Positions 14,661 through 64,000 of a stretch of DNA of 64,000 nt are shown here, in pieces (the first letter of the stretch is position 1; each line of letters begins with the position of its first letter). The notes beneath the pieces are model-generated. The model ran no database searches, was not told the DNA's origin, and saw only the letters and a program-made list of their open reading frames with translations. This DNA comes from Candidatus Dormibacteria bacterium. Lineage in GTDB: Bacteria; Chloroflexota; Dormibacteria; Aeolococcales; Bog-877. The position numbers were made by a program, and so were the translations under genes. The stretch is taken from NCBI GenBank assembly GCA_050734425.1, contig JBOHUL010000083.1, positions 6,934 through 70,933 of the forward strand, given 5' to 3'.

Positions 14661-15971
14661 ATGCCAACCAGGTCACGGGGCGAGCCATATACTTCTCCTG
14701 TGACCGTCGCCGCGTCGACCTCGGGCAACGAAGACCTCTACACCACAGCACAGCATCGGGTCGACCAGGCGGCGGAGTTGCTCCATCTCGACGACGAGGC
14801 GCGCTTGGTCCTCCGTGAAGTCAAGCGCGTCTTTCAGGTCCACTTCCCCGTTGTGGCCGACGATGGCTCGGTAGAGGTCTTCGTCGGTAACCGGGTGCAC
14901 CACAGCATCGCCCTGGGCCCGGCCAAGGGAGGTGTTCGCTACGAGGCCGAGGCGACTCTGGATCAGACCAAGGCGCTGGCCATGTCCATGTCCTGGAAGA
15001 GTGCACTGATGTCACTTCCGTTCGGTGGAGCCGCCGGCGCCGTGTGCGTCGATCCGCATCGCATGAGTGCACGCGAGCTGGAGCGGCTGACTCGGCGCTA
15101 CACGACCGAAATCAGCCTGCTGCTCGGCCCGGAGCGGGACATCCCTGCGCCGGACATCGGCACGACCCCTCAGATCATGGCCTGGATCATGGACACGCTC
15201 TCGATGCACGCGGGGTACTCGGTGACCGCGTCGGTCACCGGCAAGCCCATCGAGGCGGGGGGGTCGTTCGGACGGGTGGAGGCCGCGGGCCGGGGCATGG
15301 CGACGATCCTGGTGCATGCTCTGCGCAACACCGGTCTCAGCCTGAACGGTGCGACAGTAGCGGTCGAGGGGTACGGCAAGGTCGGCAGGACCTGTGCCCG
15401 CCTGCTGTCCGAGGCTGGCTGCCGGGTTGTGGCGGTGTCGGACAGCCATGAGGGTTGGCACTGCGACGCCGGTCTGGACCTGCAACGGTTGGAAGAGGCC
15501 AAGGCGCATGGCGGCGGGCTGACCGATGCCCACGTCCCCGGTGAGCGGATCACCCGGGACGAGCTTCTGTCGCTCCCGGTTACTGTTCTGGTCCCGGCGT
15601 CGGTCGAGTCCACGATCAACAGTGCCAACGCCTCCAAGGTGCGGGCCCGCATCGTCGCCGAGGGTGCCAACAGCCCGATCACGCCGGCGGCCGAGGCGGC
15701 GCTGGCGGAGGATGGCATCGTCATCGTGCCCGACATCCTCGCCAATGCCGGCGGGGTGACAGTCTCCTACTTCGAGTGGGTGCAGGACCTGCAGTCGTTC
15801 TTCTGGGACGAGAACGAAATCAACTCACAGCTGCAGCAGGCCATGCTCCGAGCCAGCGAGCAGGTGTGGGCCTACCACGGCCAGAAGAAGGTGTCGCTGC
15901 GCCAGGCCGCCTACCTGATCGCGGTGGGGCGGGTGGCGCGGGCGTCCAAGGTCAGGGGTATCTACCCCTGA
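14661..15971 (+). CDS. gdhA: Glutamate dehydrogenase (Glu/Leu/Phe/Val dehydrogenase family)
   Basis: The 436-aa product has GPAKGGVRY, a catalytic Lys region and the NAD-binding VEGYGKVG motif. Confidence 0.85.
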   Translation: MPTRSRGEPYTSPVTVAASTSGNEDLYTTAQHRVDQAAELLHLDDEARLVLREVKRVFQVHFPVVADDGSVEVFVGNRVHHSIALGPAKGGVRYEAEATLDQTKALAMSMSWKSALMSLPFGGAAGAVCVDPHRMSARELERLTRRYTTEISLLLGPERDIPAPDIGTTPQIMAWIMDTLSMHAGYSVTASVTGKPIEAGGSFGRVEAAGRGMATILVHALRNTGLSLNGATVAVEGYGKVGRTCARLLSEAGCRVVAVSDSHEGWHCDAGLDLQRLEEAKAHGGGLTDAHVPGERITRDELLSLPVTVLVPASVESTINSANASKVRARIVAEGANSPITPAAEAALAEDGIVIVPDILANAGGVTVSYFEWVQDLQSFFWDENEINSQLQQAMLRASEQVWAYHGQKKVSLRQAAYLIAVGRVARASKVRGIYP

Positions 15972-22376: not shown

Positions 22377-24206
22377 ATGGGCCCGGTCGGACTGGTCGAA
22401 TGCTGCCTGCGCCACGGGCAGCAGACACTTCTCCTGAGCCGGCTCCGGACCCGTCACCTGGTCCCCCTCTTGGAGCAGCTGGACGGCATCGGCTTCAAGG
22501 CGCTTGACGTCTTCGGCGGGTCGACCTTCGAGACCGGCCTCAGCCACCTGGGAGAGGATCCCTTCGAGCGCCTGCGAGCGCTGCGCCAGGCGACCAAGTC
22601 CCCTCTTCTGGGCCTGGTTCGCGGACAGGCCCTGGTCGGCTACCGGCCCCTGGCCGACGACGCCGTCAAGGCCTTCGTCGCCGAGGCCGCCACCTGCGGC
22701 CTCGACATCTTCCGCTGCTTCGACCCCCTCAACGACCCCCGAAACCTGACCTCCCTGGTGGAGGCGGTGCTGGCCGAGGGGAAGCATCCCGAGGGGGCGC
22801 TGGTCTACACCGAGAGCCCGGTGCACTCGCTGGAGAGCTTTCTGGACCTGGGGGCGGAGCTGGGGCGCTTGGGCTGCCGCAGTCTCTGCGTCTTCGACCC
22901 GGCGGGCCTCCTCGGCGCAGGCGGCGCCCGCGACCTGGTCCAGGGGCTGCTCCAGCGCACGGGGCTGCCGGTCACGGTCCACTGCGCCACCATCACCGGC
23001 CAGGCGCCCTTCGCCTACCTGGCCGCAGCCGAGGCCGGAGCCGAGGCCCTGGACGTATGCCTCTCGCCTCTCGCGGGAGGGGCCTCTTTGCCCAGCACCG
23101 AAGGGGTCTGCTCGGCCCTGCGGGGCACCGAGCTGGAGCCAAAGCTGGAGCAACGCCGCCTCCTGGGGGCGGCGGATGCGCTGGAAGCGGTACTGCCCTT
23201 GTATCAGGCCATCGCCGACCCCAGCGGCTGGCAGTACGACTCCTCGACCATGCGGACCCAGCTGGCGCCGTCGGTGGTGGAGCACCTCCACCACGAGTGC
23301 GCCTCCCAGGGCGCTCAGGAGAAGCTGGCCCAGGTGATGGAGGAGATCCCCCGGGTCCGCCGGGAGATGGGCCATCCGCCGCTGGTGACCCCCGTGGCCC
23401 AGGTGGTGGTGACCCAGGCGGTGGCCAACGTAGCCTCGGGCCAGCGCTACCTGACCGTGGCCCAGGAGGTCAAGGACTACTTCCTCGGCCTCTTCGGCCG
23501 ACCTCCGGGGCCCCTCGATCCCGAGATCCAGAAGCTCGTCATCGCCGGCGAGGCGCCGATCACAGTCCGCCCCGCCGAGGTCCTGGAGCCGGCCCTGGAG
23601 CCGGCCGGTCGGGCACTGAGGCGCCACGGCTTCGCGGAGCCCAGCCGGGCGCAGCTGCTGGACTTCCTCCTCTTTCCCCAGGCGACGCTGGCGCTGCTCC
23701 GGGGCCAGGCCAAGGTGGAGCGGCTCGAGGACGAGCCCGCGCCGGAGCCGCCGCCCACGGCCGTGGCGGAGCGGGAGTCTGACGCTGGCGATCTCTCCGA
23801 GCCGGTGGCCGCCGCCATCTCCCCGCCCCAGCCGCCCCCGGCGGCGGCGCCGGTCGCGGCGGCCGAGGTGGCGGCGCGGCGGGAGTTCTCGGTGGAGGTG
23901 GACGGCGAGGTTTTCCAGGTGGTGGTCAGTGCCACCGACGGAGGCGGCTTGGCGGCGGCCGCAGCCCCCCCGGCCGCGGCGCCGGCCCAGGCCGGCAGCG
24001 GGGTCAGGGCGCCGATGCAGGGGCTCATCGCCAGGATCGCGGTCAAGGTGGGAGACGCCGTCGAGCTCGGCCAGACGGTGGCGGTGCTGGAGGCGATGAA
24101 GATGCAGAACGACATCCCCAGCGACCGCGCCGGGCGCGTGGCCGCGGTCCTGGTCCAGGAGGGGCAGGTGGTGAGCCGGGGCGACGTGCTGGTCCAGGTC
24201 GCTTAG
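22377..24206 (+). CDS. OadA/PycB-like carboxyltransferase homolog with C-terminal biotinyl domain; catalytic residues apparently substituted
   Basis: Collinear with oxaloacetate decarboxylase alpha / pyruvate carboxylase subunit B (FRCFDPLNDPRN, LVRGQALVGYR, biotinyl EAMKMQN). The expected DTxxRD, KDMxG and HxH positions read ECCLRHGQQT, LCVFDPAGLL and VHCATITG. Confidence 0.7.
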   Translation: MGPVGLVECCLRHGQQTLLLSRLRTRHLVPLLEQLDGIGFKALDVFGGSTFETGLSHLGEDPFERLRALRQATKSPLLGLVRGQALVGYRPLADDAVKAFVAEAATCGLDIFRCFDPLNDPRNLTSLVEAVLAEGKHPEGALVYTESPVHSLESFLDLGAELGRLGCRSLCVFDPAGLLGAGGARDLVQGLLQRTGLPVTVHCATITGQAPFAYLAAAEAGAEALDVCLSPLAGGASLPSTEGVCSALRGTELEPKLEQRRLLGAADALEAVLPLYQAIADPSGWQYDSSTMRTQLAPSVVEHLHHECASQGAQEKLAQVMEEIPRVRREMGHPPLVTPVAQVVVTQAVANVASGQRYLTVAQEVKDYFLGLFGRPPGPLDPEIQKLVIAGEAPITVRPAEVLEPALEPAGRALRRHGFAEPSRAQLLDFLLFPQATLALLRGQAKVERLEDEPAPEPPPTAVAERESDAGDLSEPVAAAISPPQPPPAAAPVAAAEVAARREFSVEVDGEVFQVVVSATDGGGLAAAAAPPAAAPAQAGSGVRAPMQGLIARIAVKVGDAVELGQTVAVLEAMKMQNDIPSDRAGRVAAVLVQEGQVVSRGDVLVQVA

Positions 24207-24212
24207 ACCGAG

Positions 24213-25661
24213 GTGGCTCGCTTCGGGACGGTTCTGGTGGCCAACCGGGGCGAGATCGCGGCCCGGGTGATCCGCGGCTGCCGCGACCTGGGCCTGCGCA
24301 CGGTCGCGGTCTACTCCGAGGCCGACCGGGGTGCGCTCCACACCCGCCTCGCCGACGAGGCGGTGGGGATCGGTTCGGCGGCGCCCAGCGAGTCCTACCT
24401 CAATATCGGGCGGATCGTCGACGCCGCCCGCGGCAGCGGTGCCGAGGCGATCCACCCGGGCTACGGCTTCCTCTCCGAGAATCCGCGCCTGGCCGAGGCC
24501 TGCCGGGAGGCGGGCCTGGTCTTCGTCGGCCCCCCGCCCGAGGCCATGGCGGCCATGGGCGACAAGGTCCGGGCGCGGGAGCGGATGCGCAAGGCCGGGG
24601 TTCCGGTGGTGCCCGGGACCGGTGCCATCTCGGACGAGCAGGAGGCGGTCAGGGCCGCCCGGGAGATCGGCTTCCCCATCCTGGTCAAGGCCTCGGCCGG
24701 CGGCGGCGGCATCGGGATGAAGACGGCCGAGGACGAGGCCCAGCTGCTCCCCGCCATCCGCAGCTGCCAGGACTCGGCCAAGCGCTCCTTCGGCGACTCG
24801 CGGGTCTTCCTGGAGCATCTGGTCGCCGATCCCCGGCACATCGAGATCCAGGTGCTGGCCGACAGCCGCGGCCACACCCTCCATCTGGGGGAGCGTGAGT
24901 GCTCGATCCAGCGCCGGCACCAGAAGCTCTTCGAGGAGTGTCCCTCGACCGCACTCCGCCCGGAGCAGCGGGAACAGATGGGTCTGGCGGCGGTGAAGGC
25001 GGCCGAGGCCGTCGGCTACGTCAACGCGGGCACGGTGGAGTTCATCGAGTCCCACGGCTCCTTCTACTTCCTGGAGATGAACACCAGGCTCCAGGTGGAG
25101 CACCCGGTGACGGAGCTGGTGACCGGGATCGACCTGGTGGCGGCCCAGCTCGAGGTGGCCATGGGCGAGCCCTTGGACCTGACCCAGGAGCAGATCCACT
25201 GGCGCGGTTGGGCGATCGAGTGCCGGATCAACGCCGAGGACCCCTTCGAGGACTTTCGTCCCACCCCGGGGCGCGTCACCCGCTACCACGAGCCCACCGG
25301 CCCCGGGGTCCGGGTCGACAGCTCGCTTTCCGGACCGGGGCTGGTCAGCCCCTACTACGACCCCATGATCGCCAAGCTGGTCGTCTCGGGCCAGACCCGG
25401 CGGCAGGCGCTGGAGCGTGGTCGCCGGGCCCTCTACGAGTACGTGATCGGGGGCATCCCCACCAACATCCCCTTCCACGCCGCCCTGCTCCAGGACGAGG
25501 ACTTCGTCGGGGGGCGGCTGACCACGGCCTACATCCCCTCCCACCCCGAGCTCTTTGAGCGGGCCCGGGCCTGGCGCGACCAGCAGCCACAGCAGCTGGG
25601 TGGAGGCGGCGGTGCCCGACGGGTGGCAGCGGTGGCGGGGGCGCTGGCGGCGCTGCAGTAG
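24213..25661 (+). CDS. Biotin carboxylase (AccC/PycA-type)
   Basis: VLVANRGEIA, an ATP-grasp domain, GGGGIGMK and ECSIQRRHQKLFEE. The gene lies directly downstream of the carboxyltransferase-like gene. Confidence 0.85.
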   Translation: MARFGTVLVANRGEIAARVIRGCRDLGLRTVAVYSEADRGALHTRLADEAVGIGSAAPSESYLNIGRIVDAARGSGAEAIHPGYGFLSENPRLAEACREAGLVFVGPPPEAMAAMGDKVRARERMRKAGVPVVPGTGAISDEQEAVRAAREIGFPILVKASAGGGGIGMKTAEDEAQLLPAIRSCQDSAKRSFGDSRVFLEHLVADPRHIEIQVLADSRGHTLHLGERECSIQRRHQKLFEECPSTALRPEQREQMGLAAVKAAEAVGYVNAGTVEFIESHGSFYFLEMNTRLQVEHPVTELVTGIDLVAAQLEVAMGEPLDLTQEQIHWRGWAIECRINAEDPFEDFRPTPGRVTRYHEPTGPGVRVDSSLSGPGLVSPYYDPMIAKLVVSGQTRRQALERGRRALYEYVIGGIPTNIPFHAALLQDEDFVGGRLTTAYIPSHPELFERARAWRDQQPQQLGGGGGARRVAAVAGALAALQ

Positions 25662-55475: not shown

Positions 55476-55634
55476 CCGGCACTCCCGCTTTGAGTTCGAC
55501 CCAACTCTGATGGTAACCCCCGGGGGGGATTGCCCCGGCTTGGGACCTGACCTGACCCGCCGCCGGCATGGGGAACGTCGAGGGTGTGCTTTGCTCGCCC
55601 AGTGTCTGTGCGATTGCGACGCCCACGAGCGTTG

Positions 55635-56207
55635 ATGGAGCAGGTGGATACCGTGCCCGTCGTGGACAAGACCCTGCCCGCCTGGACCCGGCCCGAGCGG
55701 CGGGAGGCGGCACCGCTTTCCTTCGATGAGGTGTACCAGCGGCACCAGCTTGCCGTCTATCGCTACTGCCTCGCCCGTTTGGCCGACCCCGAGGCCGCCC
55801 GGGACGCCGCCGCCACCACCTTTGTGAAGGCGCTGCGCGCCTATGGCCGCGCTCGGCCCGATGCCACCGGGGTGCGGCTCTGGCTTCTCCGCATCGCCGG
55901 CAACGTGGTCAAAGACGAGGTGCGCCATCGCCGCCGCTCCTGGCGGCTCCTGGGTGCTCTGCTCCGGAGCGTCCCTGCACCTCCGGACCCCGAGGAACGC
56001 GTCTTGCTGGGGTCCGAGGTGGAGCAGGTCATGGACGCCCTGACCCAGCTCTCCGACCGCGACCAACGCCTTGTCGCGCTTCGCTGTGGCGCCGGGCTCG
56101 CCTACCGGGACGTGGCTCAGGCCATGGGCATGACCGAGAACGCCGCCCGGGTGGCCACGGGCCGAGCCCTGGGGCGGCTGCGGCAGACGGTCGAGGGACG
56201 AGGGTGA
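55635..56207 (+). CDS. ECF sigma factor
   Basis: Within ORF 55584..56207 the start is the ATG at 55635. The product has sigma region 2 ([25 protein letters not shown]) and region 4 ([35 protein letters not shown]). Confidence 0.75.
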
Positions 56208-57496
56208 CGGACCCTCGAACTCCCGACGAGCGTTGGCTGGAACGGGTGCTGGACCGGATGGCCCAGGGACGTCCCCTGGGCCCGGCGCCAACTCCGTCGC
56301 GCAACCGCGGCCAGAGCCAGCGCCGCTGGGTTGCACCCCTCGCCGGCGTGCTCGTGGCCGCGCTCGTGACTGGCGCGGTGCTTGTACCCCGGCTGCTGGA
56401 GCCGCTGGGGGGAAGCGCCGCTGGTGCGTCGGCCCGATCCTGCCGGGTGAGCCTGCCCCAGAGCTGGCGCCGTGCCATTCGAGACGGCGGGCACGCGGAC
56501 CCCGAGGGCAACGCCCAGAACGGAGTTTTGGTCTTCCCCGGGGGCATCTATCCCCCGACGGGGACGTACTTCGACGCCGACGGCACGGGGGTCTTCGAAG
56601 TCAACATCACCTCCGGCGCGACCGAGCCCATCTACCAGTTCCCTCAGACGCTCACAGGGTCTGAGGCAGTCAACCTGGATTCGAGCTTCAACGGCAGCTG
56701 GCTGGTTTTCGGTCTGACGCGGGGGCGGGGTGGCTCTGGACCCACGACCCTCTTGGCCTGGAACCGGGCCAGCGGGGCCGTGACCACGGTTGTTCCCGAG
56801 GTGGCCAAGGGCGAGTCGATCCGCTTCGGACTGGACCTGGGCCAGCCCAAGGCGGGCTACCTGTGGTGGACCGACTCCCCGCTAAAGGGGTTGGGAGTGC
56901 TGCACCTCATGCGGTTGTCCACTGGCTCCAGCAGAGCGTTCCGGGTCACGTTCCACTATGTCACCCGCCTCGAGCCGGTCGCGTACCTCCACGGGCGCCT
57001 GCTCTACACCTACACCTATCTCGACCGCCAAGGCATCCACACTGCCGTCGCCGGGATTCGGCTGAGCAACGGGTCTCGAGTGCGTCTATCTGGGCACCTG
57101 GCTGCCCAGCTGCGTGAACTCGGCCCCGGCACGACCTTCGACCAGGTGGATGGGGCCGGAGCCAGCTGGATCGGCCACAAGGGTTACCTCCACCTCTGGC
57201 CCACGGGTTCGCGCAAGCCCAGCCGGACCCTGCTGCTGGGGAGCGGCCAACCGGCAACGCTGGCTGACGGGTTCGCCGTCTTCGGCCAAGCCCTGCCCCC
57301 CACCGGTGTGGAGGTTGCCGAGGTGGCGGACTTTGGTTCCCGGTCCTACGCCATTCTCGGCCAAGGGATTGCTGCGACGTCGGGGAGCTGGATCTCGCTG
57401 CTGATCCAGCCGCCGGCAACCCAACAATTTGGGACAGACACGATTGCCGTCTTCAACACCGCCGGCCTCCCTCCACTTCCGAGCTGCCACGCCTGA
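56204..57496 (+). CDS. Anti-sigma factor-like membrane protein
   Basis: The GTG overlaps the sigma stop (GTGA). The protein has a cytoplasmic N-terminus, a TM ([20 protein letters not shown]) and a roughly 350-aa extracytoplasmic domain. Confidence 0.65.
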
Positions 57497-57726: not shown

Positions 57727-58380
57727 TCAGGGAGGGGCGAGAATCCCCGCCGGGCAGCTGACCCCGGTGCCGTGGACTCCGCAGTAGCCCTGGGGATTCT
57801 TCTCCAGGTACTGCTGGTGGTACTCCTCGGCGTAGTAGAAGGGCCCGGCCCCGACGATCTCGGTCGTGATCTCACCCAGGCCCGCCCGGGACAGGGACCC
57901 CTGGTATTCGTCCCGGGAGCGCTCCGCCAGCCGGCGCTGCTCTTCACTGAGGAAGTAGATGGCGGAGCGGTACTGCGTGCCCGCGTCCGCGCCCTGGCGC
58001 ATCCCTTGGGTGGGGTCGTGGTTCTCCCAGAAGGTCTTGAGCAGTGTGGGGTAGTTGAGACGCTTGGGGTCGTAGACGACGAGCACCGACTCGGCATGGC
58101 CGGTGCGGCTGGAGCAGACCTCCTCGTAGGTGGGGTTGGGCGTCAGACCACCGCTGTATCCGACCGCGGTGGCGTGCACCCCCGGCAGGCGCCAGAAGGT
58201 GGGTTCGGAACCCCAGAAGCAGCCCATGGCGAAGATCGCCTGCTGGCTCCCCTCCGGGAAGGGCGGCCGCAGCCCGGTCCCGAGGACAGCGTGGAGACGG
58301 CTCAGCGGCATCTCCAGGGTCCGGCCCGGGAGCGTCCGCTCCGGCGCCGGCATCGCAGTCCTGGCGGTATCCGAGCTCAT
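57727..58380 (-). CDS. msrA: Peptide methionine sulfoxide reductase MsrA
   Basis: The active-site GCFWG is present. An imperfect hairpin overlaps the stop. Confidence 0.85.
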
Positions 58381-58467: not shown

Positions 58468-59244
58468 CTACTCCCAGCGGAAGAAGAGGACGGCGGCGAG
58501 CACCGCCGCCGCGGCCCAGCCCCCTAGCAGCGCCAGGTCCGAGGCCTGAGGCACTGTTCCCCCCATCACCGCCCGCAGCGACGAGCTCATCGCCGCGGCC
58601 GGCAGGACGTGGGCCAGGGGCTGGATCCAGAGCGGGAGGTGGTCCACCGGCAGCACAACGCCTCCCAGGACCAGGAACAGGATGAAGATCCCGTTGGCGC
58701 CGCCCAAGGTGAGCTCGGCCCGGAGCGCCCCGGCCAGTGTCAGGCCCATGGCGGCGAAGAGGATCGCGCCCCCGAAGAGGACCAGGACCGTCAGAGCCGG
58801 CGAGCCCTGCCCCCGCCAGCCCAGTCCCAGCATGGCGATCAGTACCAAGAGCACCACCTGGAGCACCTCCACCACCAGCACCCCAGCGGCCTTGGCCGCG
58901 GCCAAGGCCGACCGGGGCAGTGGGGTTCCTCCGAGCCGCTTCAGGACCTGGTAGTAGCGCTGGTAGGCGGTCGAGATGCCCAGGGTGACGAGGCCGGTGG
59001 ACATCAGGGCCACGGTCAGGATCCCCGGGAGCAGGAACTGGACGGGCTTGACCCCGCCCACGGGGAAGATTCGGGCGCTGGTGAAGAGCACCAGCAAGAG
59101 CACCGGGAGGATGACGATCACCAGGAGGTTCTCCCCCTGACGCAGCAGCAGGGTCAGCTCCACGCGGAACTGGGCCACAAAGACCCGGCTCCAGGGGGCT
59201 GCCTGTGGCGTCCGCTCTCGCCCCAACGAGGTCGCCGGGTTCAC
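58468..59244 (-). CDS. ABC-2 type transporter permease
   Basis: Six hydrophobic helices. The GTG start overlaps the ATPase stop (GTGA). Confidence 0.75.
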   Translation of the reverse strand: MNPATSLGRERTPQAAPWSRVFVAQFRVELTLLLRQGENLLVIVILPVLLLVLFTSARIFPVGGVKPVQFLLPGILTVALMSTGLVTLGISTAYQRYYQVLKRLGGTPLPRSALAAAKAAGVLVVEVLQVVLLVLIAMLGLGWRGQGSPALTVLVLFGGAILFAAMGLTLAGALRAELTLGGANGIFILFLVLGGVVLPVDHLPLWIQPLAHVLPAAAMSSSLRAVMGGTVPQASDLALLGGWAAAAVLAAVLFFRWE

Positions 59245-60167
59245 CTCGGGGTCTCGGTCAGGCGCAGGTAGACCTCCTCAAGCGAGCTCCGCCCCAGCCT
59301 CAGCGCGGCCAGCTGCGGGCCCTCGCCGCGGAGCAGTTCCGTGATCTGGGCGGCCGCGTCCCGGGGCGAGGGGCTGCGGAGCTCGTAGGCGGCCCGACCC
59401 AGATCGGTCACCTCGGCCACCGCCGGCAGCCCGCGCAGGCGCTCCAGCAGGAACGGTGCCAACTCGCCGTCCAGCTCCAAGCGGATGCGGTCGCCGCCAC
59501 CGTCCTGGCGCAGCCGACTCGGGGAGTCGAAGGCCATCAGCCGGCCCCGGTTGAGGATCGCCACCCGGTCGGCCAGACGCTCGGCCTCCTCCATCGAGTG
59601 GGTGGTCAGGATGATGGTCGTACCGCCGCTGCGGGCCTGTTCCACGATCTCCCAGGTCAGCAGCCGGGCCCGGGGGTCCATGCCCGCCGTGGGCTCGTCC
59701 AAGAAGAGCAGCCTGGGCCGCCCCACCAGGGCCAGGGCCAAGGCTAGGCGCTGCTTCTCCCCGCCGGAGAGCTGACGATAGCGGGCGCCGGCCCTCTGGC
59801 TCAGACCCACCCGTTCCAGGAGCTCGAGCTGGTCCAGGGGATCGGCGAAGAAGCTGGCGAAGAGCCGCAGCGTCTCCCTCACCTTGAGAGTGGGGTAGAC
59901 GCCTCCCTCCTGGAGCATCAGGCCCACCAGCGGCCGGAGCTGGCGTCCCTGCTGCCGGGGATCGAGGCCCAGGACCCGGACCCGACCCAAGTCGGGCCGT
60001 CGATACCCCTCCAGGATCTCGACCGTCGTGGTCTTGCCGGCGCCGTTGGGGCCCAGGATGGCGACCGCCTCGCCGGAGGCGATCTCCAGGTCGAGACCCT
60101 CCAGCGCCAGGAGGGCGCCATAGGACTTGCGCAGCCCACTGACCGAGACCGCCGGCCCCGCGTTCAA
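59241..60167 (-). CDS. ABC transporter ATP-binding protein (ABC-2 exporter type)
   Basis: Walker A (GPNGAGKTT), signature LSGGEKQR and Walker B (LLFLDEPT). The TTG start overlaps the regulator stop (TTGA). Confidence 0.85.
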   Translation of the reverse strand: MNAGPAVSVSGLRKSYGALLALEGLDLEIASGEAVAILGPNGAGKTTTVEILEGYRRPDLGRVRVLGLDPRQQGRQLRPLVGLMLQEGGVYPTLKVRETLRLFASFFADPLDQLELLERVGLSQRAGARYRQLSGGEKQRLALALALVGRPRLLFLDEPTAGMDPRARLLTWEIVEQARSGGTTIILTTHSMEEAERLADRVAILNRGRLMAFDSPSRLRQDGGGDRIRLELDGELAPFLLERLRGLPAVAEVTDLGRAAYELRSPSPRDAAAQITELLRGEGPQLAALRLGRSSLEEVYLRLTETPR

Positions 60168-60904
60168 AGGCCGCCCTCGACCCCCTTGGCCAGATCCAGG
60201 CGGTAGCCGACCCCGAAGACGGTCCCGATCCTGAAGGGCAGGGTGGGGAAGCTCTCGAACTTCTCCCGGAGCCAGCGGATGTGCACCGCCACCGTCTGGT
60301 CGTCGCCACCGAAGTCCTGGCCCCAGACCGCTCGGAGCAACGCCTTGCGGCTGTGGGCCCGGCCCGGGTTTTGGAGCAGGTAGTGGAGCAGGCTGAACTC
60401 CTTGGGGCTCATCTTGACCTCCTGGCCGGCGACGGTGAGGCGGCGGGCGGCTGGGTCCAGCACCAGTTCCCCCAGCTCCAGCCGTGCCGCCGCAGCCCGG
60501 GGGCGGGCGGGTCGCTCGGCCCGTCGCAGCAGGGCCTCGACCCGGGCCAGGAACTCCTTGATCCCAAAGGGCTTGGTCATATAGTCGTCTGCGCCCAGCT
60601 CCAGCCCCTCGACCTTCTCAGGCTCAGAGGCCCGCGCGGTGAGCATCAGGATGGGCACGTCCGACTCGCGCCGGAGGATGCGGCAGACCTCCTCGCCGCC
60701 CAGCTCCGGCAGCATCAGGTCCAGAACCACCAGGTCCGGCGGCCGCCGCCGGGCCTGCTCCAGGCCCCGCGTGCCACTGCCGGCCTCGGCCACCACGTAG
60801 CCGTGGGCGGCCAGGTTGTAGCGGAGCGTCATCCGCACCGTCTCGTCGTCTTCGACGATGAGGATCCGGCGCCCCCGGCCGGCGTTGGCGCCTTCCAGGG
60901 CCAC
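60164..60904 (-). CDS. OmpR-family response regulator (RegX3/PhoP-like)
   Basis: The GTG at 60904 overlaps the phoU stop (TAGTG). The product has REC (RILIVEDDETV...DLVVLDLMLP) and a winged helix (LSPKEFSLL...GVGYRL). It lies within ORF 60164..61030. Confidence 0.85.
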   Translation of the reverse strand: MALEGANAGRGRRILIVEDDETVRMTLRYNLAAHGYVVAEAGSGTRGLEQARRRPPDLVVLDLMLPELGGEEVCRILRRESDVPILMLTARASEPEKVEGLELGADDYMTKPFGIKEFLARVEALLRRAERPARPRAAAARLELGELVLDPAARRLTVAGQEVKMSPKEFSLLHYLLQNPGRAHSRKALLRAVWGQDFGGDDQTVAVHIRWLREKFESFPTLPFRIGTVFGVGYRLDLAKGVEGGL

Positions 60905-61566
60905 TAGCCGAGCTCGGTCATCCGGCCCGTGGCCAGGAAGACCAGGTCCTCGGCGATGTTGGTCACCCGGTCGGCGATTCGCTCCAGGTTGTGGGCGATG
61001 AAGATCAAGTTGGTGCCGGCGTAGGCCCACTCCGGCTGCTCCCGCATGGTCTCGACCATGTCGTCGAAGACCCGGTGGTAGATGCGGTCGATCCGGTCGT
61101 CGCGGGCGGCGATGTCCTGGGCCCGCCGGTGGTCCCCGGTGGTGACGGCGCCCAGGATGTCGCGCACCTGCTCCTCGACGTAGCCGCCCATGCGCAAGAT
61201 GGTCTCCAGCTTGGGCCGGGTGCTGAGTTCGATCAGGGGCAGGGCGTAGCGGGCGCAGCTCTTGGCGTGGTCCCCCATCCGCTCCAGCTCCGAGGTCATC
61301 AGCATCAGGCCGAAGACCTCGTTCAGCTCACTGCCGGTGGGGTGCTGCTGGGCCAGCACCGCCAGTCCCCGGATCCGCTCCTGGCGGTGGCGTTCGTTGA
61401 GCACCAGGTCACCCTCGACCACCGCCCGGAGCCGGTCGCCGTCTCGCTCCTCCAGCCCGGACATGGCGCCCGCGACGCCGGCCGCCACCATCCCGCCCAG
61501 GACCCGGACGCCGTCTCGCAGCGCCGCCAGGTCCGCCTCCAGTCCCTTCGAGGTCGAGGTCGCCAT
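60904..61566 (-). CDS. phoU: Phosphate-specific transport system accessory protein PhoU
   Basis: Two PhoU repeats with conserved E..R..D.. motifs (ELERMGDHAK, LERIADRVTNIAEDL). Confidence 0.8.
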   Translation of the reverse strand: MATSTSKGLEADLAALRDGVRVLGGMVAAGVAGAMSGLEERDGDRLRAVVEGDLVLNERHRQERIRGLAVLAQQHPTGSELNEVFGLMLMTSELERMGDHAKSCARYALPLIELSTRPKLETILRMGGYVEEQVRDILGAVTTGDHRRAQDIAARDDRIDRIYHRVFDDMVETMREQPEWAYAGTNLIFIAHNLERIADRVTNIAEDLVFLATGRMTELG

Positions 61567-61610
61567 CTGCCCGATGGTAGACCAGGCAGATGGGCCCGGA
61601 CTCCGGGGCC

Positions 61611-62690
61611 TCAGGGCGCCTGCAGGACGATCCGGACCACGGTCCCCACTCCAGGAGTGCTGCGCACCCGGATCTCGCCCCCCTGGAGCTCGACCGCCTG
61701 CTTGGCGATCGAGAGTCCCAAACCGCTGCTGCGGCCGCTGCGGGAGCGGTCGCCGGTGTAGAAGCGGTCGAAGATCCGGGGGAGCTGGCTCCTGGTGATC
61801 CCCGAGCCCGTGTCGCGGACCGAGATGGTGGGGCGGCCGGTGGACCGGCCCGCGGTCACCGTGACCGAGCCTGGGGCGCTGGTGAACTTGAGAGCGTTGT
61901 CGAGGACGTTGACCAGCGCCCGCTCCAGCCGGCCGGGGTCGGCCAGGGCGGGAGCCGGCTTCCCCCGGATCTGCAGCTGGAGACGGCGCTCCTTGGCCTG
62001 GGGCCGCAACTCCCGGACCGCCTGGCGGGCCACCTGGAGCAGGTCCACCTCCGCGATCTCGGTCCGCTCAGCCCCCGCCTCCAGTCGGCTCAGATCGAGG
62101 ATGGCCGCGACCAGGCCGTGCAGCCGCTGAACCTCCTTGGCGATGCGGCCAGCGAAGAGCCGCACCGCCTGGGGATCGTCCTGAGCCTGGCCGGTCAAGG
62201 TCTCGGCCATCAGCTGCAGGCTGGCGAGGGGAGTGCGGAGATCGTGGGAGAGGTTGGCGATCAGCTCGTGGTGAGCTCGGCCCAGCCGCCGCTCCGAGGT
62301 GATGTCGCTCAAGATCAGGGCCACCCGGCGGCCCTGGGGGCCGGCCTCGAGTGGGGCTGCCACCGCCCGCAGAATCCGGCGCCAGTCGCTCTGCCTCAGC
62401 TCCTGCCGCAGCGTTCGGTCCTTGTCCAGGACCCGGGCGACCAGGTCACCCGCCTTGGGATCGTCCAGGACCTGGGCCAGCGGCGTCCCCTCCGCGATCG
62501 GGGTGGGGTCGGAGCCTGACTCCGAGGTGCCGCTGGCGGCCAGCAAAGCCGGTGCGTTGGGGCTGGACCACAGCACCCGGCGGGAATCGTCGACCAGCAG
62601 CAGGGCGTCGGAGCCCAGGGCGGTCAGAAGCTCCAGCAGTCGTTGGGCTTGGGCGCCGCCCAACGGAGACGGGGCGGACGGTGCCCTCAA
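61611..62690 (-). CDS. Sensor histidine kinase (PAS-HisKA-HATPase; SenX3/PhoR-like, no obvious TM)
   Basis: The TTG at 62690 overlaps the upstream gene's stop (TTGA). H-box LSHDLRTPL, N-box VLDNALKF and G-boxes DTGSGI...GLGLSIAK. The 5' 1 kb of ORF 61611..63704 is shadow or another gene. Confidence 0.75.
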   Translation of the reverse strand: MRAPSAPSPLGGAQAQRLLELLTALGSDALLLVDDSRRVLWSSPNAPALLAASGTSESGSDPTPIAEGTPLAQVLDDPKAGDLVARVLDKDRTLRQELRQSDWRRILRAVAAPLEAGPQGRRVALILSDITSERRLGRAHHELIANLSHDLRTPLASLQLMAETLTGQAQDDPQAVRLFAGRIAKEVQRLHGLVAAILDLSRLEAGAERTEIAEVDLLQVARQAVRELRPQAKERRLQLQIRGKPAPALADPGRLERALVNVLDNALKFTSAPGSVTVTAGRSTGRPTISVRDTGSGITRSQLPRIFDRFYTGDRSRSGRSSGLGLSIAKQAVELQGGEIRVRSTPGVGTVVRIVLQAP

Positions 62691-63214
62691 CTGAGGTCCC
62701 AGCCCCCGTCCCCGCCCGGACGGCCCAAATAGACGGCTCCCTCGACCCGATCCAGGTCCCGACCGAGGTCGAGCCTCCAGACTCCTCCCTTGGGACAGCG
62801 GCGGCTGCCCGAGACCCCGGCGCCCTCTAGGAGTTGGGGGATCCGATCCCCGTGAGTGCAGGTAGTGACCCCATCCAACGTCCCGCCCAAGGCCTCCCGA
62901 ACGAAAAGGCTCGACAGTAATTCCCTGAGCAGCCGGGCCCTGTCCCCCCCGGGACCGCCGATCCCCTCCGCCAGTTGGGGGTCCGCGGTCACGCCCTGCC
63001 CCAGCCGGTGGGCCAGGGGCAACAGGGTGTCGCGACAGCGGCGGGCGGGGCTGCTGTAGTGCGCCCGGACGGCTAGAGAGCCCAGCAGCTCCGCCAGCGC
63101 CAGCGCCTGGCGCCACCCGGCAGGACTGAGTGGCCTGAGATCGTCGGGCCCCTCCCAGCTGTCCCGCTCTAGAGCCATCGCGTGGCGGACGAGGTAGAGG
63201 CTGCGTGCGGCGAT
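62687..63214 (-). CDS. Phosphohistidine phosphatase SixA-like (histidine phosphatase superfamily)
   Basis: The canonical ATG at 63178 lies 2 residues downstream of the catalytic RH(A) motif (SLYLVRHA MALERD...RPLSPAGWRQA...YSSPARRCRDT). The in-frame ATC at 63214 would give MAARSLYLVRHA. The stop overlaps the kinase start. Confidence 0.6.
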   Translation of the reverse strand: MAARSLYLVRHAMALERDSWEGPDDLRPLSPAGWRQALALAELLGSLAVRAHYSSPARRCRDTLLPLAHRLGQGVTADPQLAEGIGGPGGDRARLLRELLSSLFVREALGGTLDGVTTCTHGDRIPQLLEGAGVSGSRRCPKGGVWRLDLGRDLDRVEGAVYLGRPGGDGGWDLS

Positions 63215-63287
63215 CTGGCGAGTATAGGCAGGGGCGTACGGGCGACATCGCGCAAACTACCCCGGTGGCCCTCGCCTCTTCACCGCT

Positions 63288-64000
63288 GTGAGTTCCCTCC
63301 CCGCCCTGACCAGGGATGCGGGCCCTCGCTTCGGGGCCATCGACATTGGCAGCAACACCGTCCACCTGCTGGTGGCCAGTTGTCCCCCCAGACGGCTGCC
63401 GATCCCGCTCTTCCACCACCGGGAATTCGTCCAGCTGGGACTGGATGTGAGCCGGCAGGGTGCCATCGGCGAGGAGCGGCTGGGGCTGGCGATCAGGGCC
63501 CTGCGCCGGCAGGTGGATGACGCCCGCAAGGCGCAGGTGGACGAGATCGCGATCGGGGCTACCGAGGCCCTGCGGGCCGCCAGCAACGGGGCCGAGGTGG
63601 CCAAGCGGTTGGGGGCGGTCACCGGGGGGGGGGCGGTCCACGTCCTCCCCTCCCAGGTCGAGGCCCAGCTGACCTTCGACGGCGCGACCATGACGGTGGC
63701 CCAAGGTCGGTCAGCCTTGGTCCTGGACATCGGTGGCGCCTCCTCCCAGGTGGCCTGGGGCCCGGCCGGCGGGGTCTGCCAGCGGGCGTCTCTGCGCCTG
63801 GGCTCGGGGTCGCTCGCGGCCATGGCCACGTCCGAGCCACCTGATGCGTCCGAGTGGGACGCCATGGTGGAGTCGGTCTCCCGGGGGATCTCGCTGCCCC
63901 ACCTTGGCTCCACCTTTGAGGTGGCGTTGGGCACCGGGGGCACCGTCACCAACCTGCCCCGGCTGCTTGGCCTCGATGGTACCCAGGGCCTGACCCGGAC
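63288..64000 (+). CDS. ppx: Ppx/GppA-family phosphatase (exopolyphosphatase), 3' end beyond window
   Basis: Not listed in the ORF track because it runs off the end. The plus frame from the GTG at 63288 gives RFGAIDIGSNTVHLLVA...LVLDIGGASSQVAWG (Ppx/GppA ASKHA-fold motifs). Confidence 0.7.
   Translation, partial: MSSLPALTRDAGPRFGAIDIGSNTVHLLVASCPPRRLPIPLFHHREFVQLGLDVSRQGAIGEERLGLAIRALRRQVDDARKAQVDEIAIGATEALRAASNGAEVAKRLGAVTGGGAVHVLPSQVEAQLTFDGATMTVAQGRSALVLDIGGASSQVAWGPAGGVCQRASLRLGSGSLAAMATSEPPDASEWDAMVESVSRGISLPHLGSTFEVALGTGGTVTNLPRLLGLDGTQGLTR

What the first reader, a model, noticed from the sequence alone, without database searches (positions are those of the whole stretch)
58468..63288. 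Six-gene minus-strand operon chained by overlapping stop/start codons: SixA-like phosphatase, PAS histidine kinase, PhoU, OmpR regulator, ABC ATPase and ABC-2 permease, divergent from ppx
Reading the minus strand, each gene's stop overlaps the next gene's start: SixA-like/kinase TTGA at 62687-62690, PhoU/regulator TAGTG at 60904, regulator/ATPase TTGA at 60164-60167, and ATPase/permease GTGA at 59241-59244. Only the kinase-PhoU junction has a 44-nt gap. A phosphohistidine phosphatase (SixA) homolog translationally coupled to a histidine kinase is unusual, because SixA is known to act on the HPt domain of ArcB. Placing PhoU between a SenX3/PhoR-like kinase and its regulator, followed by an ABC-2 exporter, is also not the standard pst/phoU or senX3-regX3 layout. 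The divergent neighbour is a Ppx/GppA phosphatase, which suggests a phosphate/polyphosphate-responsive module with a built-in phosphatase brake on the kinase.
Basis: partly seen in the sequence, partly recalled or inferred. Interest (0 to 1): 0.65.

Follow-up and report, generated by a model that had tools for sequence, protein, structure and literature searches.

The report
Phosphate-sensing gene cluster with built-in phosphatase
This is the standard phosphate/polyphosphate signalling locus of the uncultured soil phylum Dormibacterota, in which a small histidine phosphatase gene overlaps the start of a PhoR/SenX3-type sensor kinase gene; the cluster is real and conserved, but it is a variant of known systems, and this genome's phosphatase copy has lost its normal start codon.

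Summary
They are also conserved in at least 34 other Dormibacterota species-level genomes, so this is not a chance juxtaposition.

Corrections:
1. **Phosphatase identity.** The 'SixA-like' protein is a stand-alone homologue of the C-terminal domain of mycobacterial MutT1 (profile E=4e-28, against 3e-4 for E. coli SixA). That domain was shown in 2025 to dephosphorylate SenX3~P and PhoR~P. The neighbouring regulator's best solved relative is RegX3. The 'phosphatase brake' idea therefore has direct experimental precedent, though it is not shown here.
2. **Polyphosphate link.** Outside this phylum the same small phosphatase sits in polyphosphate clusters (ppx, CHAD, ppk1, NUDIX) with no kinase. 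Its tie to polyphosphate is older than its tie to the kinase.
3. **Internal promoter.** The single 44-nt gap holds a phylum-conserved -10-like hexamer (TANNAT) 6-7 nt before the PhoU start codon. This points to an internal leaderless promoter and two transcription units rather than one operon.
4. **Exporter.** The ABC-2 exporter is accessory; it is absent in 5 relatives.
5. **Start codon.** In this genome the ancestral GTG start of the phosphatase is GCA.

Verdict: a new variant of a known kind, of moderate interest.

The parts
63288..64000 (+). ppx (Ppx/GppA exopolyphosphatase), 5' part. The gene runs off the window end; it is 328 aa in the source contig.
   Evidence: Pfam Ppx-GppA E=5e-21 and TIGR03706 E=8e-36. 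Annotated as 328 aa in L001. In every other Dormibacterota locus with enough flank it is followed by a CHAD gene, but not in this genome.
63250..63291 (+). Conserved block in the ppx/phosphatase intergenic region. On the ppx strand it reads GCGCAAACTA (63250-63259, containing the -10-like CAAACT at 63253-63258), then 5 nt, then GTG at 63265. That GTG opens an 8-codon mini-ORF whose TGA (63289-63291) overlaps the ppx GTG (63288).
   Evidence: GCAC-N5-WAGTNTGCGC occurs once per locus, always here, in 17 loci (alignment). The mini-ORF keeps an 8-codon length and a TGA stop in most main-clade loci, while its peptide sequence varies. Function not tested.
63221..63226 (-). TATACT, a -10-like hexamer upstream of the phosphatase gene.
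   Evidence: Read from the intergenic alignment: TATACT or TATAAT occupies the same column in most Dormibacterota loci, 11-12 nt before the GTG start of the relatives. One sub-clade (L036-L044) has TGTACC or TGTAGG instead.
62687..63208 (-). Histidine phosphatase gene (stand-alone MutT1-C-terminal-domain / SixA-type). 63208-63206 is the ancestral start position, GCA here. The catalytic Arg-His is at 63187-63182. The only canonical start is ATG 63178.
   Evidence: His_Phos_1 E=2e-13. Best NCBIfam match is the MutT1 C-terminal part. Profile against PDB: MutT1 5gg5 E=4e-28, SixA 1ujb E=3e-4. AlphaFold pLDDT 93, with MutT1 as the top fold matches. Start-codon loss.
61611..62690 (-). Soluble PhoR/SenX3-type histidine kinase (PAS-like N-terminal region, HisKA with H-D-L-R-T box, HATPase_c), with a TTG start overlapping the phosphatase stop.
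   Evidence: Pfam HisKA and HATPase_c. Near-full-length matches to PnpS (E=4e-69) and PhoR TIGR02966 (E=1e-54), both below their cutoffs. PAS_4 detected in relatives; the nearest outsiders are membrane-bound Chloroflexota PhoR. No hydrophobic segment.
61574..61579 (-). TACCAT, a -10-like hexamer inside the 44-nt kinase-PhoU gap, 7 nt before the PhoU ATG. Candidate internal promoter giving a leaderless PhoU mRNA.
   Evidence: In the 34-sequence alignment T, A and T at hexamer positions 1, 5 and 6 are invariant and A at position 2 is conserved in at least 90%. TANNAT is present in the 33 loci that have a gap, with a 6-7 nt spacer to the start codon. Only 9 such patterns occur in the whole window, and 2-3 of them sit at gene starts.
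60904..61566 (-). phoU (two PhoU domains).
   Evidence: TIGR02135 phoU_full scores 148 bits, above its 130-bit cutoff; Pfam PhoU matches two stretches. It is the most conserved gene of the cluster, 73-87% identical to relatives.
60164..60904 (-). OmpR-family response regulator, RegX3/PhoB-like. Its GTG start shares one base with the PhoU stop.
   Evidence: REC + Trans_reg_C. Best NCBIfam match is PhoB at 221 bits, below its 296-bit cutoff. Best solved relative is M. tuberculosis RegX3 2oqr, E=2e-51.
59241..60167 (-). ABC-2-type exporter ATPase (DrrA-like). Its TTG start overlaps the regulator stop.
   Evidence: ABC_tran; TIGR01188 drrA at 226 bits, below cutoff. NTGA overlap in 27/27 loci that have the gene. 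The gene pair is absent in L013, L015, L022, L025 and L028.
58468..59244 (-). ABC-2 permease (DrrB-like). Its GTG start overlaps the ATPase stop.
   Evidence: ABC2_membrane E=8e-15; strongly hydrophobic; NTGA overlap in 23/24 loci.
57727..58380 (-). msrA, the conserved downstream neighbour, separated by a gap. Probably not part of the module.
   Evidence: PMSR E=2e-62. It follows the cluster after a 48-202 nt gap in nearly all loci, including those without the ABC genes; L030 is the exception, with about 1.8 kb between the permease and msrA.

Best explanation
**What it is.** This is the phylum-typical phosphate/polyphosphate signalling locus of Candidatus Dormibacterota. On one side lies ppx, followed by CHAD in all relatives. 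On the other side, transcribed divergently, are:
1. a stand-alone histidine phosphatase of the MutT1-C-terminal-domain/SixA type;
2. a fully cytoplasmic PhoR/SenX3-type kinase, whose start codon overlaps the phosphatase stop;
3. after a short gap that carries its own -10-like element, PhoU;
4. a RegX3/PhoB-like regulator;
5. in most species, an ABC-2 exporter pair.

**Shown here.** Gene identities, junction structure, and conservation of both across at least 34 species-level genomes.

**Inferred mechanism.**
- PhoU sets the kinase/phosphatase balance of the soluble kinase through its PAS-like region.
- The kinase phosphorylates the regulator. Its H-D-L-R-T box suggests it also dephosphorylates the regulator.
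- The small phosphatase removes the phosphoryl group from the kinase's phospho-histidine, as MutT1's homologous domain does to SenX3~P and PhoR~P. This damps or resets signalling.
- The NTGA overlap keeps phosphatase and kinase production coupled.
- PhoU, the regulator and the exporter are probably also expressed from an internal promoter as a leaderless mRNA.

**In this genome.** The phosphatase has lost its ancestral GTG start, so the brake may be weak, catalytically dead or absent.
For: - **Identities:**
- **Synteny:** present in L004-L008, L013-L047 and L093.
- **Junction conservation:** 34/36, 35/35, 27/27 and 23/24. In many loci the overlapping codon is the only start codon found within 150 nt of the phosphatase stop, upstream of the conserved kinase N-terminus.
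- **Catalytic residues:** all invariant residues (R, H, second R, second H) are retained.
- **Experimental precedent:** MutT1's C-terminal domain dephosphorylates SenX3, PhoR, MtrB, MprB, DosS and PrrB but not five other kinases. The RHG histidine is required. MutT1 lowers phosphotransfer to RegX3 and alters target-promoter activity (PMC12407098).
- **Second lineage:** an unrelated low-GC MAG (L094) has a canonical SixA immediately upstream of a PhoB-like regulator and a soluble PAS kinase.
- **Internal promoter:** a TANNAT hexamer in the 33 loci that have a gap, with a 6-7 nt spacer to the PhoU start, and the same geometry at other gene starts in the window.
Against: - There is no direct evidence that this phosphatase touches this kinase.
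- Outside Dormibacterota the small phosphatase is tied to ppx/CHAD/ppk1/NUDIX without a kinase. The literature lists SixA as a typical polyphosphate-operon neighbour (PMC12995831).
- No phosphatase-kinase fusion appears among the 120 best kinase homologues.
- E. coli SixA's in-vivo targets are NPr and Ndk, not a kinase (abstract).
- In this genome there is no canonical start codon before the catalytic motif. The protein is also somewhat more diverged than its neighbours predict: 56% identity against about 67%.
- The promoter calls are sequence inference only.
- No recognisable PHO-box direct repeat was found.
Confidence: 0.55

Rival explanations
1. The small phosphatase belongs functionally to the polyphosphate module (ppx, CHAD, ppk1). 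It would act on another phospho-histidine protein, such as the PPK1 or Ndk catalytic intermediates, or on a small phosphorylated metabolite. Its position in front of the kinase would then reflect shared phosphate-responsive regulation, not a kinase-phosphatase pair.
For: - ppx(-)|CHAD-phosphatase occurs in Acidobacteriota, an Acidimicrobiia MAG and L052.
- ppx-ppk1-(CYTH-CHAD)-phosphatase occurs in Rubrobacterales, Kiritimatiellae and Margulisiibacteriota.
- ppk1-CYTH/CHAD-NUDIX-phosphatase occurs in an Actinomycetota MAG.
- The Sulfolobus ppx operon contains sixA and CHAD, and SixA is listed among typical PPK neighbours (PMC12995831).
- SixA and MutT1 regulate Ndk (abstracts).
- The only Dormibacterota genome here that lacks CHAD next to ppx is also the only one that lost the phosphatase start codon.
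Against: - In Dormibacterota the phosphatase gene lies on the kinase strand, divergent from ppx-CHAD, and its stop overlaps the kinase start in 34/36 loci.
- The homologous MutT1 domain does act on SenX3 and PhoR.
- The two roles are not mutually exclusive.
Confidence: 0.3
2. In this particular genome the phosphatase gene is decaying or makes only an inactive product, and the locus works as a plain soluble PhoR-PhoU-RegX3/PhoB system. Translation would start at ATG 63178 and give a 163-aa protein lacking strand beta-1 and the catalytic Arg-His, or there would be no translation at all.
For: - GTG has become GCA at the ancestral start, in three assemblies.
- No ATG/GTG/TTG lies upstream of the RHA motif.
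- In the structural model, beta-1 and R8/H9 are the first ten residues.
- NCBI and the other gene callers annotate the 163-aa form.
- CHAD is also missing from the locus.
- Divergence is mildly elevated.
Against: - The eight codons upstream of ATG 63178 (R-S-L-Y-L-V-R-H) are identical in protein to L004, while four of them differ by synonymous changes only. All family-invariant residues are kept. This fits continued translation from a non-canonical start such as ATC 63214, or only a recent loss.
- A catalytically dead MutT1 still binds SenX3 and reduces phosphotransfer, so an inactive product need not be functionless.
Confidence: 0.45
3. The ABC-2 exporter is the signalling input. Its ATPase would play the part that PstB plays for PhoU in E. 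coli, so the system would report exporter activity rather than phosphate status.
For: The regulator and ATPase genes overlap by NTGA in 27/27 loci, and the ATPase and permease genes in 23/24. No pst genes were found in the parts of the 64-kb window that were scanned.
Against: - The exporter pair is absent from five otherwise identical loci.
- The ATPase is a generic DrrA-type protein with no specific similarity to PstB.
- A related soluble kinase sits in a kinase-pstSCA-PhoU-regulator cluster, so Pst coupling is the likely ancestral state.
- pst genes may lie elsewhere in the genome.
Confidence: 0.08
4. The arrangement is a chance juxtaposition of unrelated genes, and the overlaps are by-products of high G+C content.
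For: Four-base NTGA overlaps are common in high-GC genomes. When a gene ends in TGA, three of the four possible preceding bases create a start codon.
Against: The same order, strand and junction types recur in at least 34 species-level genomes whose phosphatases are only 40-58% identical to this one.
Confidence: 0.02

Closest known systems
Mycobacterial MutT1 (Rv2985 / MSMEG_2390) C-terminal histidine-phosphatase domain acting on SenX3 and PhoR (Emam et al., NAR 2025, PMC12407098)
   Same: - It is the closest sequence and fold relative of the window's phosphatase.
- It has the same RH(G/A) nucleophile motif.
- Its demonstrated substrates, SenX3 and PhoR, are the same kinase type as the neighbouring gene, and RegX3 is the best solved match of the neighbouring regulator.
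- It is also linked to polyphosphate genes: ppk1 lies next to mutT1 in mycobacteria (my own knowledge), and a split ppk1-CHAD-NUDIX-phosphatase cluster was seen.
   Different: - Here the domain is a separate ~170-aa protein with no NUDIX domain.
- It keeps the canonical second histidine (C-S/T-H-G-D) where MutT1 has Gln (CTQGK).
- Its gene overlaps the kinase gene, whereas mutT1 is unlinked to senX3.
- No biochemistry exists for it.
E. coli SixA phosphohistidine phosphatase
   Same: It is a small single-domain branch-1 histidine phosphatase of similar size and fold (TM 0.60), and a protein phospho-histidine phosphatase.
   Different: The relationship is distant (E=3e-4, rank 46 by fold). Its established in-vivo targets are NPr of the nitrogen PTS and Ndk, and ArcB regulation was not reproduced (PMC6282199). 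The gene is not in a two-component operon.
Pst/PhoU/PhoR-PhoB (E. coli) and Pst/PhoY/SenX3-RegX3 (mycobacteria) phosphate-sensing pathways
   Same: A PAS-HisKA kinase, a PhoU protein that passes the phoU_full cutoff, and an OmpR-family regulator. PhoU directly upstream of the regulator also occurs in a kinase-pstSCA-PhoU-regulator relative.
   Different: The kinase has no membrane anchor. No pst genes are in the cluster or in the scanned parts of the window. A phosphatase gene is coupled to the kinase gene, and an unrelated ABC-2 exporter follows the regulator.
Conserved polyphosphate operons containing ppx, CHAD, PPK and SixA (e.g. Sulfolobus acidocaldarius saci_2017-2021; PMC12995831)
   Same: A SixA-type phosphatase lies next to ppx and CHAD. 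The same association was found here in Acidobacteriota, Actinomycetota, Kiritimatiellae and Margulisiibacteriota.
   Different: In Dormibacterota the phosphatase has moved to the opposite strand and heads a two-component operon. No ppk gene is in the neighbourhood, and this genome also lacks the CHAD gene.

Membership tests
Histidine phosphatase superfamily branch 1, SixA / MutT1-C-terminal-domain type | N-terminal RH(G/A) motif carrying the nucleophilic histidine | tested here: met
   LYLVRHA is encoded in frame at 63199-63179 and the Arg-His is invariant in the family. In this genome, however, it lies upstream of the only canonical start codon.
Histidine phosphatase superfamily branch 1, SixA / MutT1-C-terminal-domain type | Second catalytic Arg and second His of the phosphate pocket | tested here: met
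   R57 (RCR) and H119 (HGD) are invariant in alignment A2. MutT1 itself has Gln at the second His position.
Histidine phosphatase superfamily branch 1, SixA / MutT1-C-terminal-domain type | Compact ~160-170-aa fold without the phosphoglycerate-mutase insertions, closest to the MutT1 C-terminal domain or SixA | tested here: met
   AlphaFold model with pLDDT 93.2. Foldseek top hits are MutT1 5gg6/5gg5 with TM 0.72; SixA 1ujb has TM 0.60. Profile E=4e-28 to MutT1.
Histidine phosphatase superfamily branch 1, SixA / MutT1-C-terminal-domain type | Protein phospho-histidine phosphatase activity | not testable with these tools
   Known only for the homologous MutT1 domain (PMC12407098) and for E. coli SixA.
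PhoR / SenX3 phosphate-sensor histidine kinase | HisKA dimerisation/phospho-acceptor domain with H-box, plus the HATPase_c catalytic domain | tested here: met
   Pfam HisKA E=6e-16 and HATPase_c E=4e-29; the H-box reads SHDLRTP.
PhoR / SenX3 phosphate-sensor histidine kinase | Cytoplasmic PAS domain preceding the HisKA domain | tested here: inconclusive
   Pfam finds no PAS in the window's protein. The protein does align over residues 15-355 to the PAS-containing PhoR model TIGR02966 and to PnpS, and PAS_4 is detected in many orthologues.
PhoR / SenX3 phosphate-sensor histidine kinase | N-terminal membrane anchor (two transmembrane helices) | tested here: not met
   No 19-residue window exceeds 1.6 on the Kyte-Doolittle scale (maximum 1.22). 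Orthologues are 350-380 aa with no HAMP or TM-associated domains, whereas Chloroflexota PhoR relatives have them.
PhoR / SenX3 phosphate-sensor histidine kinase | Score above the curated equivalog cutoff | tested here: not met
   PnpS 233.6 bits against a 400-bit cutoff; TIGR02966 185.5 bits against 334.2.
PhoU | Two PhoU domains and a score above the phoU_full cutoff | tested here: met
   TIGR02135 scores 148.4 bits against a 130.25-bit cutoff; Pfam PhoU matches two stretches.
PhoB / RegX3 response regulator | Receiver domain plus OmpR-type winged-helix output domain | tested here: met
   Response_reg E=4e-28 and Trans_reg_C E=4e-25. Best solved relative is RegX3 2oqr at E=2e-51. TIGR02154 PhoB scores 220.8 bits, below its 296.2-bit cutoff.
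Classical Pho regulon locus (pst-phoU with phoBR) | pstSCAB phosphate transporter genes adjacent to phoU | tested here: not met
   The ABC genes in the cluster are DrrAB-like. The 20 other large ORFs scanned in the window are purine-biosynthesis and unrelated metabolic genes.
Single polycistronic operon | Same strand, no internal promoter or terminator, one transcript | tested here: inconclusive
   Same strand and overlapping junctions, but a conserved -10-like TANNAT lies 6-7 nt before the PhoU start. No transcript data were available.

The most novel reading that the evidence does not exclude
Dormibacteria sense phosphate with a membrane-free, four-protein cytoplasmic device: a soluble PhoR-like kinase, PhoU, a RegX3/PhoB-like regulator, and a dedicated stand-alone phospho-histidine phosphatase made in step with the kinase. 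The device is physically joined to the polyphosphate turnover genes ppx-CHAD. It would read internal phosphate or polyphosphate status rather than Pst transport flux. It would also be the first natural case of an extrinsic kinase~P phosphatase hard-wired into a two-component operon.
Probability: 0.3. Interest if true: 0.7.

Novelty: new variant of a known kind. Interest (0 to 1): 0.5.

Why it matters
Extrinsic phosphatases that reset sensor kinases at the phospho-histidine step have been nearly absent from the two-component field. The first mycobacterial case, MutT1's C-terminal domain, was reported only in 2025, rests mainly on in-vitro and overexpression data, and that paper does not mention polyphosphate genes or gene neighbourhood. 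A whole phylum in which the stand-alone version of that domain overlaps a SenX3/PhoR-type kinase gene gives independent comparative-genomic support for the pairing. It also offers a simple, separable protein pair for biochemistry. The locus further ties three things that are usually studied apart: PhoU-dependent phosphate sensing, polyphosphate turnover (ppx/CHAD), and phospho-histidine phosphatases. Finally, it shows a PhoR that has lost its membrane anchor. For genome annotation, it shows that 'SixA family' and 'phosphoglycerate mutase family' labels hide a distinct MutT1-domain-like clade.

Tried and rejected
- **PHO box.** The ppx/phosphatase intergenic alignment shows a conserved GCAC-N5-TAGTTTGCGC block, but no direct repeats with 10-11-bp periodicity. 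The 10-mer is not enriched in the window: 4 matches with up to 1 mismatch against 3.7 expected. An attempt to run the repeat finder on the region failed on a strand argument and was not repeated.
- **Sigma-54 reading of TGGCAC-N-TTGC.** Rejected by eye on spacing: about 15 nt between GG and GC instead of 11 (from the alignment).
- **RNA hairpin at the PhoU start.** The window has an inverted repeat (CATCTGCC...GGCAGATG) spanning the PhoU start, and single-sequence folds show stems in several loci. RNAalifold on 34 sequences predicts no consensus pairs, so the conserved feature is the hexamer, not a structure.
- **Rfam.** No family matched anywhere in the window at gathering threshold.
- **Consensus promoter/terminator scan.** The only terminator-like hits lie inside the permease coding region, and the only promoter hit is on the wrong strand.
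- **Phosphatase-kinase fusion proteins.** None among the 120 best kinase homologues.
- **CHAD, ppk1 or a second phosphatase elsewhere in the window.** None found.
- **Frameshift rescue of the phosphatase start.** The upstream ATG at 63248 is in the frame of the long, non-coding-looking ORF 61611-63704 and gives no homology.
- **Relaxed selection on the window's phosphatase.** Only a mild, non-decisive deficit: 56% identity against 67% in one identity bin, and an overall residual of -0.02.

Full report
**Observation.**
- His_Phos_1;
- HisKA + HATPase_c;
- PhoU, two domains;
- Response_reg + Trans_reg_C;
- ABC_tran;
- ABC2_membrane.

A Ppx-GppA gene starts divergently at GTG 63288, and msrA lies downstream. 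The junctions are as stated:
- TTGA at 62690-62687;
- a 44-nt gap between the kinase stop (61613-61611) and the PhoU ATG at 61566;
- TAGTG at 60906-60902;
- TTGA at 60167-60164 and GTGA at 59244-59241.

**The flaw: the phosphatase start.** Between the upstream in-frame stop (63259-63257) and the catalytic motif LYLVRHA there is no ATG, GTG or TTG. The first canonical start is ATG 63178, the codon right after RHA.

**Source and conservation.** The window is part of NCBI MAG GCA_974104925.1. The same locus occurs in two Logan assemblies of separate runs. Homologues of the phosphatase are almost all from Candidatus Dormibacterota. Look-ups of individual homologues and one scan of GTDB species representatives returned about 40 loci with the same layout: [CHAD]-ppx on one strand, then phosphatase-kinase-PhoU-regulator-(ATPase-permease)-msrA on the other. 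A few of these contigs carry other NCBI labels (Micrarchaeaceae, Acidiferrales, Nanopelagicaceae) but share the synteny and 55-70% identities. They are probably mis-binned or mislabelled.

Over 36 non-identical loci:

| Junction | Result |
|---|---|
| phosphatase stop / kinase start | NTGA overlap in 34/36 |
| kinase to PhoU | gap of 9-47 nt in almost all |
| PhoU to regulator | -4 to +3 nt in 35/35 |
| regulator / ATPase | NTGA overlap in 27/27 |
| ATPase / permease | NTGA overlap in 23/24 |
| to msrA | gap of 48-202 nt in all but one locus (L030, about 1.8 kb) |

An NTG before a TGA is a start codon three times out of four by chance. The stronger point is that in many loci this is the only start codon found within 150 nt of the phosphatase stop, upstream of the conserved kinase N-terminus. 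Five loci (L013, L015, L022, L025, L028) lack the two ABC genes and go straight from the regulator to msrA. The conserved core is therefore phosphatase-kinase-PhoU-regulator, and the exporter is accessory.

**What the proteins are.**

*Phosphatase.*
- Its best NCBIfam match is the C-terminal part of mycobacterial MutT1.
- A profile of the family hits M. smegmatis MutT1 (5gg5) at E=4e-28, M. tuberculosis Rv2985 (9cxx) at 1e-24 and a Bifidobacterium MutT1 (3fjy) at 4e-18. E. coli SixA (1ujb) scores only 3e-4.
- An AlphaFold model (pLDDT 93.2) has MutT1 structures as its ten best Foldseek matches (TM 0.69-0.73). SixA ranks 46th with TM 0.60.
- The catalytic Arg-His, the second Arg and the second His are invariant in the family. 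MutT1 itself has Gln at the second His position.

*Kinase.*
- It aligns over nearly its full length to PnpS and to the PAS-containing PhoR model, below their cutoffs.
- Many orthologues have a detectable PAS_4 domain.
- Its nearest relatives outside the phylum are membrane-bound Chloroflexota PhoR proteins with HAMP and PAS domains.
- It has no hydrophobic segment and is therefore cytoplasmic.
- Its H-box reads H-D-L-R-T. In my own knowledge, this motif marks bifunctional kinases that also dephosphorylate their regulator.

*Others.* PhoU passes the phoU_full cutoff. The regulator's best solved relative is M. tuberculosis RegX3 at E=2e-51. The ABC pair is DrrAB-like, below cutoff.

**Experimental precedent.** Emam et al. 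(NAR 2025, PMC12407098) showed the following for the C-terminal domain of MutT1:
- It dephosphorylates autophosphorylated SenX3, PhoR, MtrB, MprB, DosS and PrrB, but not DosT, TcrY, KdpD, NarS or PdtaS.
- The RHG histidine is required.
- It lowers phosphotransfer to RegX3.
- A His-to-Ala mutant still binds SenX3 and impedes transfer.

That paper does not mention polyphosphate genes or gene neighbourhood. The Dormibacterota operon gives independent genomic support. [quoted passage not shown] A 2026 paper adds Ndk (abstract).

**The polyphosphate link is older.** Weaker relatives of the phosphatase in other phyla sit in polyphosphate clusters without a kinase:

| Arrangement | Lineages |
|---|---|
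| ppx(-) \| CHAD-phosphatase | Acidobacteriota, an Acidimicrobiia MAG, L052 |
| ppx-ppk1-(CYTH-CHAD)-phosphatase | Rubrobacterales, Kiritimatiellae, Margulisiibacteriota |
| ppk1-CYTH/CHAD-NUDIX-phosphatase | an Actinomycetota MAG |

The last arrangement is a split version of the mycobacterial ppk1-mutT1 pair (that adjacency is from my own knowledge). The literature already lists SixA, CHAD, PPX and NUDIX proteins as typical PPK neighbours, and Sulfolobus has a ppx-sixA-CHAD operon (PMC12995831). The Dormibacterota-specific step is therefore the capture of this phosphatase by a Pho-type two-component operon placed back-to-back with ppx-CHAD. This keeps alive the rival that the enzyme's main target is a polyphosphate-related phospho-histidine protein. 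The two roles are compatible.

One further hint of recurrent linkage: an unrelated low-GC MAG (L094) has a canonical SixA (GHNP type) immediately upstream of a PhoB-like regulator and a soluble PAS kinase.

**PhoU position and the gap.** A related soluble kinase in a JGI metagenome lies in sigma70-kinase-pstS-pstC-pstA-...-PhoU-regulator. PhoU directly before the regulator is thus an existing layout, here without the pst genes.

The single gap in the chain is not empty:
- In an alignment of 34 loci, the 33 that have a gap carry a TANNAT hexamer (TACTAT, TACCAT, TAAGAT, TAACAT, TAGTAT). T, A and T at positions 1, 5 and 6 are invariant and A at position 2 is conserved in at least 90% of the sequences. 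The hexamer ends 6-7 nt before the PhoU start codon. In the window it is TACCAT at 61579-61574.
- This is the signature and spacing of a -10 element whose transcript would begin at the start codon, that is, a leaderless mRNA.
- In the whole window only nine TANNNT-N6/7-RTG patterns exist on both strands. Two or three of them coincide with first start codons of long ORFs: 6949, 61566, and near 14700.
- I therefore think the cluster is two nested units, phosphatase-kinase and PhoU-regulator-(exporter), rather than one obligatory six-gene transcript. This is inference from sequence.
- An alternative is that the A/T-rich hexamer merely opens the mRNA for internal initiation.
- A hairpin seen in single sequences is not supported by a consensus fold.

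**Upstream region.**
- Before the phosphatase gene, most relatives have TATACT or TATAAT 11-12 nt ahead of the GTG start. The window has TATACT at 63226-63221.
- Further upstream lies a conserved GCAC-N5-TAGTTTGCGC block, found once per locus.
- Read on the ppx strand, this block is a -10-like CA[A/G/C]ACT hexamer followed after 6 nt by a GTG or ATG. That codon opens a mini-ORF of conserved length (8 codons, TGA stop) but variable sequence in most main-clade loci.
- In the window the mini-ORF's stop overlaps the ppx start (63265-63291).
- I did not find PHO-box-like direct repeats.

**Peculiarities of this genome.**
- Relatives with the conserved upstream context read GAG ATC GCG GTG CGC AGT (V/M-R-S-LYLVRHA). 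The window reads CAG ATC GCC GCA CGC AGC, so the ancestral GTG is GCA, in all three assemblies.
- The codons for R-S-L-Y-L-V-R-H upstream of ATG 63178 encode the same residues as in L004; four of them differ by synonymous changes only, and all invariant residues are kept. This fits continued translation from a non-canonical start, or a recent loss.
- A product starting at ATG 63178 would lack strand beta-1 and the catalytic Arg-His.
- This genome is also the only one with adequate flank in which CHAD is missing next to ppx.
- Its phosphatase is somewhat more diverged than the neighbouring genes predict.
- Whether the brake works in this organism is therefore open. I put the chance that no active enzyme is made at about 0.45.

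**Verdict.** The locus is a new variant of known Pho/polyphosphate systems. Its value is as a natural, separable phosphatase-kinase pair, and as evidence linking PhoU signalling, polyphosphate genes and phospho-histidine phosphatases.

Noticed in passing
window 63250-63291 (+); same position in L004, L013-L029 and others: On the ppx strand, a conserved -10-like CA[A/G/C]ACT hexamer is followed after 6 nt by a GTG or ATG that opens a mini-ORF. The mini-ORF has a conserved length (8 codons, TGA stop) but a non-conserved peptide. In the window its stop overlaps the ppx start codon (GTGA at 63288-63291). It is a candidate leaderless upstream ORF of ppx.
   Followed up: partly
window beyond 64000 (L001:3739-5891) compared with L004:4954-5934 and the other Dormibacterota loci: Every other Dormibacterota locus with enough flank has a CHAD gene directly after ppx. 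This genome goes from ppx straight to a DAO-family oxidoreductase. It is the same genome that lost the phosphatase start codon.
   Followed up: partly
L094:3442-6041 (NCBI MAG GCA_041745075.1, low G+C, next to a TonB-dependent receptor gene): A canonical SixA-type phosphatase (RHA...GHNP) lies immediately upstream of a PhoB-like regulator and a soluble PAS kinase that is 37% identical to the window's kinase. This is a possible independent case of SixA/Pho-type two-component linkage.
   Followed up: partly
L095:3892-11077 (JGI metagenome 3300013761): A soluble PhoR-like kinase (43% identical) lies in sigma70-kinase-pstS-pstC-pstA-...-PhoU-regulator. This shows the kinase...PhoU-regulator order with pst genes in between.
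   Followed up: no
L031:2665-4826: One Dormibacterota locus has about 2 kb inserted between the kinase and PhoU genes, exactly at the gap that carries the -10-like element. The content of the insertion was not examined.
   Followed up: no
window 6949 (+) and 14700 (+): Two further gene starts have a TANNNT hexamer 6-7 nt before the start codon: a cytochrome b561/molybdopterin oxidoreductase fusion and a Glu/Leu/Phe/Val-family dehydrogenase. This suggests leaderless mRNAs are used elsewhere in this genome.
   Followed up: partly
L019, L033 (labelled Micrarchaeaceae archaeon), L023 (Acidiferrales), L034 (Nanopelagicaceae): Contigs with the full Dormibacterota synteny and 55-85% protein identities carry unrelated NCBI organism labels. 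This is probably mis-binning or mislabelling in the SMAG set.
   Followed up: no
window 17657-39135 (+): A long run of purine-biosynthesis genes (IMPDH, GMP synthase, purD, adenylosuccinate lyase, purL, purF, purH), interrupted by a two-gene biotin carboxylase pair at 22377-25661. Ordinary chromosomal context, with no pst or ppk genes.
   Followed up: partly
window 55584-57496 (+): A 207-aa ORF that by eye looks like an ECF-type sigma factor ends in a 4-nt overlap (56204-56207) with a 430-aa ORF. This could be a sigma/anti-sigma pair. It was not checked with any tool.
   Followed up: no
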